Below, one piece after another: positions 1 through 1,762 of a stretch of 2,827 bases of DNA. The notes under the pieces were generated by a model. It was not told the origin of the DNA. It saw nothing but the letters and a program-made list of their open reading frames with translations, and did not search any database. The stretch's first letter is position 1. Each line of letters begins with the position of its first letter. The stretch lies in the sequence record FN394995.1. The stretch is one strand, 5' to 3'. A program made the position numbers and the translations under genes. The DNA is from Enterobacteria phage CUS-3.

Positions 1-543
1 ATGGCGCGCCCAACAAAGTATCAAGAGGCGTATGCCGAACAGGCACGCAAACTGTGCTTGCTGGGCTACACCGATGCAGAGCTTGCTGATTTCTTCGAAG
101 TCAGTGAGTCAACTATTAACAAGTGGAAGCTTGATTATCCTGAGTTTTCGGAGTCCATAAAAAAGGGTAAGGCCGTCGCTGATGCAGAAGTTAGTGACCG
201 TCTTTATCAACGCGCTATGGGCTTCGTGGCTCCAGACATCGATATTCGTGTTATTGAAAACAGAATTGTCGAAACTCCGCTTGAGAAGTATTACCCGCCT
301 GATACAACTGCCGCCATCTTCTGGCTTAAGAACCGACAGAAGGATAAATGGCGCGACAAGGTTGATCACGAGCTAACAGGCAAAGACGGCGGCGCAATTC
401 AGATTGAAACATCACCGATGAGCACTCTGTTCGGAAAANNNNNNNNNNNNNNNNNNNNNNNNNNNNNNNNNNNNNNNNNNNNNNNNNNNNNNNNNNNNNN
501 NNNNNNNNNNNNNNNNNNNNNNNNNNNNNNNNNNNNNNTCTGA
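1..543 (+). CDS. Phage terminase small subunit (DNA-packaging protein). Only codons 1-146 (nt 1-438) are readable; the true stop lies in the masked run 439-538, and the track stop at 541-543 is valid only if the masked bases hold no stop.
   Basis: ATG at 1 opens an uninterrupted frame to the mask. The translation has an N-terminal helix-turn-helix-like segment (GYTDAELADFFEVSESTINKWKLDYPEF) followed by a basic/aromatic segment (AAIFWLKNRQKDKWRDKVDHELTGKDGGAIQIE). From memory, this resembles small terminases of P22/Sf6-like phages. No search was run. Confidence 0.65.
   Translation: MARPTKYQEAYAEQARKLCLLGYTDAELADFFEVSESTINKWKLDYPEFSESIKKGKAVADAEVSDRLYQRAMGFVAPDIDIRVIENRIVETPLEKYYPPDTTAAIFWLKNRQKDKWRDKVDHELTGKDGGAIQIETSPMSTLFGKXXXXXXXXXXXXXXXXXXXXXXXXXXXXXXXXXX
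439..538. other. Masked or undetermined sequence (100 N). It hides the 3' end of the terminase small subunit gene and whatever joins it to the tailspike fragment.
   Basis: A run of n characters is directly visible. Confidence 0.99.
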
Positions 544-1762
544 GCCATGTGTAAAATATTATGATGGCATTCTGTATCTGACGACCAGGGGGACATTAAG
601 TACTCAACCCGGTAGTTCATTGCACAGAAGCTCTGATTTAGGTACATCATGGAATTCTCTTCGCTTCCCAAATAATGTTCATCACTCAAACCTTCCTTTT
701 GCCAAAGTTGGCGATGAGCTGATTATTTTTGGCAGTGAGCGCGCATTTGGTGAGTGGGAAGGAGGAGAACCTGATAACCGTTATGCAGGAAACTATCCAA
801 GAACATTTATGACCAGAGTTAACGTCAATGAGTGGAGTCTGGATAATGTAGAGTGGGTTAATGTTACTGATCAGATTTATCAGGGCGGAATAGTTAACTC
901 TGCGGTTGGTGTTGGTTCAGTTTGTATCAAAGACAACTGGCTGTACTACATTTTCGGTGGGGAAGACTTTCTAAACCCATGGAGCATAGGGGATAACAAC
1001 AGAAAATATCCTTATGTTCACGATGGTCACNNNNNNNNNNNNNNNNNNNNNNNNNNNNNNNNNNNNNNNNNNNNNNNNNNNNNNNNNNNNNNNNNNNNNN
1101 NNNNNNNNNNNNNNNNNNNNNNNNNNNNNNNNNNNNNNNNNNNNNNNNNNNNNNNNNNNNNNNNNNNNNNNNNNNNNNNNNNNNNNNNNNNNNNNNNNNN
1201 NNNNNNNNNNNNNNNNNNNNNNNNNNNNNNNNNNNNNNNNNNNNNNNNNNNNNNNNNNNNNNNNNNNNNNNNNNNNNNNNNNNNNNNNNNNNNNNNNNNN
1301 NNNNNNNNNNNNNNNNNNNNNAGCGGCGGTGAAACAACGTCTTCAGCAGATGGTGCAATGATAACGTTGCATGGTTCCGGAAGCAGTACTCCACGTCGCG
1401 CGGTATATAACGCACTCGAACATCTTTTTGAGAACGGAGATGTTAAACCTTATCTTGATAATGTAAATGCTCTTGGTGGTCCGGGAAACAGGTTCTCGAC
1501 AGTTTATCTTGGCTCCAATCCTGTGGTTACCAGTGACGGAACATTAAAGACAGAGCCGGTCTCTCCTGACGAAGCATTGCTGGATGCCTGGGGTGACGTC
1601 AGGTATATCGCTTATAAATGGCTGAACGCTGTCGCTATAAAGGGGGAAGAAGGGGCGAGGATACATCATGGTGTAATCGCGCAGCAACTTCGTGATGTTC
1701 TTATTTCTCACGGACTCATGGAAGAAGAAAGCACAACATGCCGCTATGCCTTTCTTTGCTAT
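539..1762 (+). CDS. Tailspike protein, C-terminal portion (endosialidase-like catalytic propeller segment plus C-terminal intramolecular chaperone domain). Partial at both ends: the 5' end and most of the gene are absent or masked, the interior 1031-1321 is masked, and the stop is presumably inside the 1763-2179 mask.
   Basis: The frame beginning at 539 has no stop across 539-1030 (164 codons) and resumes in the same frame with no stop across 1322-1762 (147 codons). The 291-nt mask between them is a multiple of 3. The first segment reads SEPCVKYYDGILYLTTRGTLSTQPGSSLHRSSDLGTSWNSL...YYIFGGEDFLNPWSIGDNNRKYPYVHDGH, with an Asp-box. The second segment reads ...NALGGPGNRFSTVYLGSNPVVTSDGTLKTEPVSPDEALLDAWGDVRYIAYKWLNAVAIKGEEGARIHHGVIAQQLRDVL..., which is typical of the C-terminal auto-cleaving chaperone domains of phage tailspikes and tail fibres. 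Confidence 0.75.
629..652 (+). other. Asp-box (bacterial neuraminidase repeat) motif inside the tailspike CDS
   Basis: Codons 629-652 translate to S-S-D-L-G-T-S-W. This fits the sialidase-family consensus S-x-D-x-G-x-T-W with a conservative Thr to Ser change at position 7. Confidence 0.6.
1031..1321. other. Masked or undetermined sequence (291 N) inside the tailspike CDS. Its length is a multiple of 3, so the frame is preserved across it.
   Basis: A run of n characters is directly visible; the flanking open frames are in the same phase. Confidence 0.99.
1322..1762 (+). other. C-terminal intramolecular chaperone (auto-processing, peptidase S74-like) domain of the tailspike, with a putative autoproteolytic Ser/Asp junction at 1532-1537
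   Basis: The translation contains VVTS|DGTLKTEP (Ser codon agt at 1532-1534, Asp codon gac at 1535-1537), then DAWGDVRYIAYKW and GVIAQQLRDVL. These resemble the conserved cleavage-site and downstream blocks of the endosialidase / K5 lyase / T5 L-shaped tail fibre chaperone family. The match is by recollection of the family, not by alignment. Confidence 0.6.

What the first reader, a model, noticed from the sequence alone, without database searches (positions are those of the whole stretch)
1..1030. Terminase small subunit directly adjacent to a tailspike 3' portion, which is not a native phage gene order
In P22/Sf6-like genomes the small terminase gene is followed by the large terminase, portal, scaffold, coat and tail genes, and the tailspike lies roughly 15-20 kb downstream. 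Here the small terminase ORF (frame 1) disappears into a 100-nt mask, and immediately afterwards the sequence is already deep inside a tailspike catalytic domain (frame 2) with no start codon. The possible explanations are a large internal deletion in a degraded prophage, a rearrangement or assembly join, or masking that compressed a longer interval. I cannot tell these apart from the sequence.
Basis: partly seen in the sequence, partly recalled or inferred. Interest (0 to 1): 0.5.

Follow-up and report, generated by a model that had tools for sequence, protein, structure and literature searches.

The report
Stitched typing record, not a deletion
The small terminase gene sits next to the middle of the tailspike gene only because this sequence is a database record that joins four separately sequenced pieces of the E. 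coli K1 prophage CUS-3 with runs of N; in real genomes the two pieces lie 18-21 kb apart, so the finding is ordinary.

Summary
A complete small terminase ORF (1-438) runs into exactly 100 N, and the sequence resumes at codon 487 of an endosialidase tailspike gene.

The adjacency is not biological. The window belongs to a series of at least 17 GenBank records, all 2827 nt, titled [quoted passage not shown]. The three records I compared base by base have N runs at the same coordinates as the window. The window differs from two of these records by one base each.

In the complete CUS-3 genome the 100 N stand for 18,254 bp: large terminase, portal, scaffold, coat, tail and injection genes, the immunity region and the tailspike 5' half. 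Sister record FN394994 comes from strain IMT5155 and matches that strain's complete genome in all four fragments. There the two fragments lie 20,754 bp apart. None of 5,426 complete E. coli genomes has them adjacent.

The other two N runs (291 and 417) equal the true distances exactly. The neuO heptanucleotide repeat was removed in silico without any N marker.

Verdict: a record-formatting artefact of a known prophage, with no deletion or rearrangement. Interest is very low.

The parts
1..438 (+). Fragment 1: complete small terminase subunit CDS of prophage CUS-3 (146 codons), trimmed of its stop codon
   Evidence: It is 100% identical to FN394989/92/93/94 positions 1-438, which are annotated 'phage terminase small subunit'. 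It equals CP000711 22705..22268, where the CDS is 22265-22705. It is 100% identical to IMT5155 genome 516175..515738. PHROG 309 E 2e-68. The C-terminal 38 aa match Sf6 gp1, PDB 3HEF/4DYC.
439..538 (.). 100-N spacer placed by the depositors between non-contiguous fragments; it stands for 18,254 bp in CUS-3 RS218 and 20,754 bp in IMT5155
   Evidence: The same N run is present in the sister records compared base by base, FN394989 and FN394992. The flanking fragments map to CP000711 22268 and 4013 and to NZ_CP005930 515738 and 494983. The genes in between are listed.
539..1030 (+). Fragment 2: internal part of endosialidase tailspike gene siaK1 (residues 487-650 of 981), catalytic beta-propeller
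   Evidence: Pfam PF12217 End_beta_propel, E 1.6e-104, profile positions 192-355 of 367. It is 100% identical to CP000711 4013..3522 inside siaK1 (CDS 2526-5471) and is annotated 'siaK1: endosialidase' in the sister records.
1031..1321 (.). 291-N gap sized to the true distance (97 codons of siaK1, reading frame kept)
   Evidence: The distance between fragments 2 and 3 is 291 bp in CP000711 (3521..3231) and 291 bp in the IMT5155 genome. 1322-539 = 783 = 261 codons.
1322..1762 (+). Fragment 3: siaK1 residues 748-894, the end of the tailspike stalk domain plus the start of the C-terminal intramolecular chaperone (peptidase S74) domain
   Evidence: Pfam PF12219 End_tail_spike, E 7e-33, and PF13884 Peptidase_S74, E 8e-12. 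It maps to CP000711 3230..2790. It differs by one base from the IMT5155 genome and from FN394994 (1379) and by one base from FN394992 (1750).
1763..2179 (.). 417-N gap sized to the true distance: the last 264 nt of siaK1 plus the 153-nt siaK1-neuO intergenic region, up to the neuO ATG
   Evidence: CP000711 2789..2373 is 417 bp, read from the sequence with the siaK1 CDS ending at 2526. The gap is also 417 bp in the IMT5155 genome.
2180..2827 (+). Fragment 4: neuO (polysialic acid O-acetyltransferase) CDS without its stop codon and with the phase-variation repeat (AAGACTC)n removed in silico; the unmarked junction is at 2184|2185
   Evidence: The alignment to the IMT5155 neuO CDS shows 126 bp (18 repeats) and the TAA stop absent from the window and from the sister records, and identity everywhere else. 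RS218 has 19 copies at the same place. Pfam Hexapep, E 4e-11. Annotated 'neuO: K1 capsule O-acetyltransferase'.

Best explanation
The window is a composite INSDC record from a prophage-typing study. Four separately obtained sequence fragments of the P22-like E. coli K1 prophage CUS-3 were written into one 2827-nt entry in genome order and joined by runs of N. The fragments are the small terminase CDS, two internal pieces of the endosialidase tailspike gene siaK1, and neuO. The first run (100 N) is an arbitrary spacer that replaces about 18-21 kb of phage DNA: large terminase, portal, scaffold, coat, head-completion and injection genes, the immunity region, and the first 1,458 nt of siaK1. The second and third runs (291 and 417 N) reproduce the real distances exactly. 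The variable neuO heptanucleotide repeat was cut out so that all records have the same length. The terminase-tailspike adjacency therefore exists only in the record, not in any DNA molecule. Shown here: the membership of the record series, the N layout, the mapping and the distances. Inferred: that the fragments are PCR amplicons used for genotyping, and that the window is accession FN394995.
For: 1. At least 17 GenBank records (FN394218, FN394986-FN395002) are all exactly 2827 nt and described as 'CUS-3 partial proviral terminase gene, siaK1 gene and neuO gene, genotype GT_n'. They come from different K1 strains and match the window at 97.9-100% per fragment at the same coordinates.
2. The window differs from FN394992 by 1 base and from FN394989 by 7 bases. 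Both have N runs at 439-538, 1031-1321 and 1763-2179, exactly as in the window.
3. The depositors annotated four partial CDSs that end exactly at the N borders, with two separate protein accessions for siaK1.
4. In the complete CUS-3 genome CP000711 the fragments lie at 22705-22268, 4013-3522, 3230-2790 and from 2372 downward. The distances are 18,254, 291 and 417 bp, against N runs of 100, 291 and 417, and all structural genes are annotated in the first interval.
5. Same-strain test. Record FN394994 (strain IMT_5155) has annotated CDS borders at the same coordinates as the window's N-run borders. It is identical to the IMT5155 complete genome in fragments 3 and 4. Fragments 1 and 2 are also identical, through their 100% identity to the window. 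In that genome fragments 1 and 2 are 20,754 bp apart, with large terminase, portal, capsid and the other structural genes between them.
6. In 5,426 complete E. coli genomes, 679 hold a match, but none has the two fragments close enough to be joined into one place.
7. Fragments 1 and 4 are whole CDSs trimmed of their stop codons, and the neuO repeat is excised cleanly. These are signs of in-silico editing.
Against: The strain behind this exact window could not be identified, so its own genome was not examined. FN394995, the only accession of the series not in the collection, is only presumed to be the window. The paper that presumably describes the typing scheme (Mordhorst et al. 2009, PMID 19671077, cited in PMC13001214) is not held. 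That the fragments are PCR amplicons is therefore inferred from the record titles and layout, not read from the methods.
Confidence: 0.97

Rival explanations
1. A real internal deletion of about 18 kb in a degraded CUS-3 prophage joined the end of the small terminase gene to the middle of the tailspike gene.
For: Degraded P22-like prophages are common. In some complete genomes the endosialidase fragment matches without a terminase match (one place per record, e.g. MS8345, SF-088). The CUS-3 lineage closest to the window carries an IS66 element in its tailspike gene.
Against: At least 17 records from different strains share the same 2827-nt length. The three checked in detail have the same layout, which independent deletions would not produce. 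The strain of one such record (IMT5155) has the full 20,754-bp interval. No complete E. coli genome shows the junction. Fragment 1 stops exactly at the last sense codon and fragment 2 starts exactly on a codon boundary.
Confidence: 0.01
2. An assembly scaffold gap or misjoin in a shotgun assembly placed two contig ends next to each other with the conventional 100 N.
For: By INSDC convention (my own knowledge, not tested here), 100 N marks a gap of unknown length in scaffolds.
Against: The records are titled as partial genes with a genotype number, not as assemblies. Each fragment is trimmed to CDS or codon boundaries. The two other N runs equal the reference distances to the base. The neuO repeat was removed by hand. 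An assembler does none of these things.
Confidence: 0.01
3. The scanning pipeline masked 100 nt of otherwise contiguous sequence, so terminase and tailspike really are about 100 nt apart in the source.
For: Some collections used by these tools contain masked stretches that read as N.
Against: The Ns are present at the same coordinates in the independently held GenBank sister records, and the depositors' partial-CDS features end at them. The true interval in reference genomes is 18-21 kb.
Confidence: 0.01

Closest known systems
GenBank series FN394218, FN394986-FN395002: 'Enterobacteria phage CUS-3 partial proviral terminase gene, siaK1 gene and neuO gene, genotype GT_n'
   Same: Same length (2827 nt), same four annotated fragments, and N runs at the same coordinates in the records compared. 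The window differs by 1 nt from FN394992 and by 1 nt from FN394994.
   Different: No record in the collection is fully identical. The window is a further genotype of the series, presumably FN394995, which is absent from the collection.
Enterobacteria phage CUS-3, complete genome CP000711 (E. coli RS218), a P22-like Lederbergvirus
   Same: All four fragments map to it in the same order and orientation at 98.6-100% identity. The gene order runs small terminase, large terminase, portal, and so on to ant, siaK1, neuO and int.
   Different: The real genome has 18,254 bp where the window has 100 N, and 19 copies of AAGACTC in neuO where the window has none.
CUS-3-type prophage of APEC IMT5155 (NZ_CP005930) and phage phiv205-1 (MN340231)
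   Same: Fragments 1, 2 and 4 are 100% identical to IMT5155 and fragment 3 differs by one base. phiv205-1 is 100% identical in fragments 1 and 2 and 99.9% over fragments 3 and 4.
   Different: These genomes have 20.75 kb between fragments 1 and 2, including an IS66 element inserted near the 5' end of the tailspike gene. IMT5155 has 18 repeats in neuO.
Sf6 gp1 small terminase subunit (PDB 3HEF, 4DYC)
   Same: The C-terminal 38 residues are nearly identical (E 5e-11), the length is similar (146 vs 140 aa), and the gene has the same position upstream of the large terminase.
   Different: The N-terminal ~108 residues do not align by phmmer. The protein looks mosaic, with a different N-terminal part.

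Membership tests
Composite CUS-3 genotyping record (FN394218/FN394986-FN395002 series) | Record length 2827 nt with N runs at 439-538, 1031-1321 and 1763-2179 | tested here: met
   The window and FN394989 and FN394992 have identical length and N coordinates. All listed series members are 2827 nt.
Composite CUS-3 genotyping record (FN394218/FN394986-FN395002 series) | Near-identity to series members across all four fragments at the same coordinates | tested here: met
   One difference from FN394992. One difference from FN394994, at 1379.
Composite CUS-3 genotyping record (FN394218/FN394986-FN395002 series) | Fragments are non-contiguous in the source genome | tested here: met
   18,254 bp apart in CP000711. 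20,754 bp apart in IMT5155, the strain of FN394994. The window's own strain was not available.
Composite CUS-3 genotyping record (FN394218/FN394986-FN395002 series) | Exact accession and the published description of the typing scheme | not testable with these tools
   FN394995 is not in the collection. Mordhorst et al. 2009 is not held.
Prophage CUS-3 (P22-like, Lederbergvirus) | Endosialidase tailspike (beta-propeller, stalk and S74 chaperone domains) followed by neuO | tested here: met
   Pfam PF12217, PF12219, PF13884 and Hexapep. 99.4-100% nucleotide identity to CP000711 siaK1 and neuO.
Prophage CUS-3 (P22-like, Lederbergvirus) | P22-type order of packaging and structural genes between small terminase and tailspike | not testable with these tools
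   The window replaces this interval with 100 N. The genes are present in the reference and in IMT5155.
Terminase small subunit (Sf6 gp1-like) | Sequence membership in a small-terminase family | tested here: met
   PHROG 309, E 2e-68, over residues 1-142. The C-terminus matches Sf6 gp1 structures. There is no Pfam or NCBIfam hit.
Terminase small subunit (Sf6 gp1-like) | Gene immediately upstream of, and overlapping, the large terminase gene | tested here: met
   CP000711 CDS 22265-22705 against large terminase 20853-22268, a 4-nt overlap. The arrangement is the same in IMT5155.
Terminase small subunit (Sf6 gp1-like) | Oligomeric ring that recognises the pac site and stimulates the large terminase | not testable with these tools
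   This is a biochemical property and was not addressed.
NeuO polysialic acid O-acetyltransferase | Left-handed beta-helix (hexapeptide) acyltransferase, identical to annotated neuO | tested here: met
   Hexapep E 4e-11. The post-repeat coding sequence is identical to the IMT5155 neuO CDS.
NeuO polysialic acid O-acetyltransferase | 5' (AAGACTC)n repeat that mediates phase variation | tested here: not met
   The repeat is absent from the window because it was excised in the record. It is present in the genomes, with 18 copies in IMT5155 and 19 in RS218. This is a property of the record, not of the gene.

The most novel reading that the evidence does not exclude
The particular K1 strain behind this record might carry a real deletion from the end of the small terminase gene to the middle of siaK1, hidden behind the standard record format.
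Probability: 0.01. Interest if true: 0.1.

Novelty: not a real feature. Interest (0 to 1): 0.03.

Why it matters
It matters only as a caution for the scan. Composite database entries, such as multi-locus typing records joined by N runs, produce apparent non-native gene orders, truncated ORFs and missing repeats that are not biology. Three signatures help recognise them: an N run of exactly 100, fragments trimmed to codon boundaries, and sister records of identical length. Recognising them avoids chasing false deletions. CUS-3, its endosialidase tailspike and phase-variable neuO are well described (for example PMC3046976 and PMC13001214).

Tried and rejected
- Real deletion: rejected by the same-strain comparison of FN394994 with the IMT5155 genome and by 0 of 5,426 complete genomes showing the junction.
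- Pipeline masking: rejected because the deposited sister records hold the same Ns and their CDS features stop at them.
- First ORF not a terminase: considered because Pfam and NCBIfam gave nothing. Rejected on PHROG 309, the Sf6 gp1 C-terminal match and the gene's position upstream of the large terminase.
- Finding the window's exact record: FN394995 is not in the collection.
- Reading the source papers: Mordhorst 2009 and King 2007 are not held.
- Several loci fetched in parallel calls did not reach the Python sandbox, so some mapping was done from BLAST tables, sequence read-outs and DNA alignment instead.

Full report
**What is in the window.**
The 2827-nt window consists of four stretches of sequence separated by three N runs: 439-538 (100 N), 1031-1321 (291 N) and 1763-2179 (417 N).
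- Stretch 1 (1-438, frame 1) is an ATG-initiated ORF of 146 codons.
- Stretch 2 (539-1030, frame 2) and stretch 3 (1322-1762) are open in the same frame as each other.
- Stretch 4 (2180-2827) starts with ATG.

**Checking the observation.**
- Stretch 1 matches PHROG 309 'terminase small subunit' at E 2e-68. Its last 38 residues are almost identical to Sf6 gp1, whose structure was solved as the small terminase subunit (PDB 3HEF, 4DYC).
- Pfam and NCBIfam have no model that hits it. I therefore also used gene position: in CUS-3 and in E. coli IMT5155 the same ORF lies immediately upstream of the large terminase gene and overlaps it by 4 nt.
- Stretch 2 matches the Pfam endosialidase catalytic beta-propeller at E 1.6e-104, covering model positions 192-355 of 367. 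It is therefore deep inside the catalytic domain and has no start codon.
- Stretch 3 carries the end of the endosialidase tailspike domain and the S74 intramolecular chaperone domain. Stretch 4 is a hexapeptide-repeat acyltransferase.

**What the window is.**
- Megablast against the phage collection returned a series of GenBank records: FN394218 and FN394986-FN395002. Each is exactly 2827 nt and matches the window at the same coordinates.
- Their description is 'Enterobacteria phage CUS-3 partial proviral terminase gene, siaK1 gene and neuO gene, genotype GT_n'. Each comes from a different E. coli K1 strain.
- The depositors annotated four partial CDSs whose borders are exactly the N borders: 1..>438 terminase, <539..>1030 siaK1, <1322..>1762 siaK1, and 2180..>2827 neuO.
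- A base-by-base comparison shows that FN394989 and FN394992 have N runs at exactly the window's coordinates. They differ from the window by 7 bases and 1 base respectively. FN394994 differs only at position 1379.
- The Ns are therefore part of the deposited records and are not a mask added by the scan.
- FN394995 is the only accession of the series missing from the collection. It is probably the window itself, but this is an inference.
- The series presumably belongs to the K1/CUS-3 population study of Mordhorst et al. 2009, which is cited in PMC13001214 and PMC3046976. The paper is not held and the records shown do not name it, so this link is also an inference.

**What the N runs stand for.**
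On the complete CUS-3 genome (CP000711, reverse strand) the fragments map as follows:
- Fragment 1 maps to 22705-22268. This is the whole small terminase CDS minus its TGA.
- Fragment 2 maps to 4013-3522.
- Fragment 3 maps to 3230-2790.
- The neuO ATG is at 2372.

The real distances are therefore 18,254 bp, 291 bp and 417 bp, against N runs of 100, 291 and 417. The second and third runs are sized to the base. The second keeps the siaK1 reading frame (97 codons), so fragments 2 and 3 are residues 487-650 and 748-894 of the 981-residue protein. The third run covers the last 264 nt of siaK1 and the 153-nt intergenic region. Only the first run is a token spacer. The 18,254 bp it replaces hold the following:
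- large terminase, portal, scaffold and coat;
- head-completion and injection proteins;
- the mnt/ant region;
- the first 1,458 nt of siaK1.

**Same-strain test.**
- Sister record FN394994 is from strain IMT_5155, whose complete genome (NZ_CP005930) is in the E. coli collection.
- The record is identical to the genome in fragments 3 and 4. Fragments 1 and 2 are also identical, through their 100% identity to the window.
- In that genome fragment 1 lies at 516175-515738 and fragment 2 at 494983-494492. They are 20,754 bp apart, with large terminase, portal, capsid and the other structural genes annotated between them.
- The 291- and 417-bp distances are again exact.
- So a record with this same annotated layout (CDS borders at the window's N-run borders) demonstrably comes from a genome with the native gene order.
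- Among 5,426 complete E. coli genomes, 679 have a match to the query 1-1030. In none are the two fragments close enough to be joined into one place.

**A second, unmarked edit.**
- In the genomes neuO reads ATGT(C/T)-(AAGACTC)n-GTTTTCC, with n = 18 in IMT5155 and n = 19 in RS218.
- The window and its sister records read ATGTC-GTTTTCC (window 2180-2191). The phase-variation repeat was removed in silico with no N to mark it, and the stop codon was trimmed.
- This explains why all records have the same length. It also shows that the entry is an edited concatenation made for allele comparison.

**Explanation and rivals.**
- The best explanation (confidence 0.97) is a record-formatting artefact: non-contiguous typed fragments of a known prophage joined by N spacers.
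- A real deletion, an assembler scaffold gap and pipeline masking each get about 0.01. The arguments against them are the shared layout across strains, the same-strain genome, the codon-exact trimming, the base-exact sizing of the other two gaps and the hand-removed repeat.
- What remains untested is the genome of the window's own, unidentified strain.

**Comparison with what is known, and novelty.**
- Everything here is known. CUS-3 is a P22-like (Lederbergvirus) prophage of K1 E. coli, with an endosialidase tailspike and the phase-variable O-acetyltransferase NeuO (PMC3046976, PMC13001214).
- The reported adjacency is not a real feature of any genome. Interest is 0.03.

Noticed in passing
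window 2180-2191 (junction 2184|2185): The neuO phase-variation repeat (AAGACTC)n was excised in silico with no N placeholder, so ATGTC is joined directly to GTTTTCC. Genomes have 18 (IMT5155) or 19 (RS218) copies there. The resulting 216-codon 'neuO' ORF, also lacking its stop codon, is an edited construct and not a natural zero-repeat allele.
   Followed up: yes
window 1031-1321 and 1763-2179: Unlike the 100-N spacer, these two N runs equal the true genomic distances to the base: 291 and 417 bp in both CUS-3 RS218 and IMT5155. The first keeps the siaK1 frame (97 codons). The second hides the siaK1 3' end, the intergenic region and any neuO promoter.
   Followed up: yes
L006 16093-21488 (NZ_CP005930, IMT5155); L005 3572-8967 (MN340231): In the two complete genomes whose terminase fragment is 100% identical to the window, the endosialidase tailspike gene is split near its 5' end by an IS66 element (tnpA/tnpB/tnpC). 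This CUS-3 lineage may be unable to make functional virions. The window does not cover that part of the gene.
   Followed up: partly
window 1-438: The small terminase has no Pfam or NCBIfam hit. It is called 'hypothetical protein' in RefSeq IMT5155 and 'HNH homing endonuclease' in MN340231, where the coat gene is labelled 'terminase small subunit'. Only its last 38 residues align to Sf6 gp1, which suggests a mosaic protein with a conserved C-terminal tail and a different N-terminal part.
   Followed up: partly
window 1379, 1750, 2184: Single-base differences define the genotype. 1379 G (A in FN394994 and IMT5155) and 1750 C (G in FN394992) place the window between GT_8 and GT_10. 2184 C/T is a real polymorphism in the second neuO codon: ATGTC in IMT5155, ATGTT in RS218 and FN394989.
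   Followed up: yes
E. coli genome hits H66, H72, H82: Some complete genomes (MS8345, SF-088, SCU-125) match the endosialidase fragment at 100% but show only one place, so no megablast match to this terminase allele. They may carry a different P22-like mosaic or a truncated prophage.
   Followed up: no
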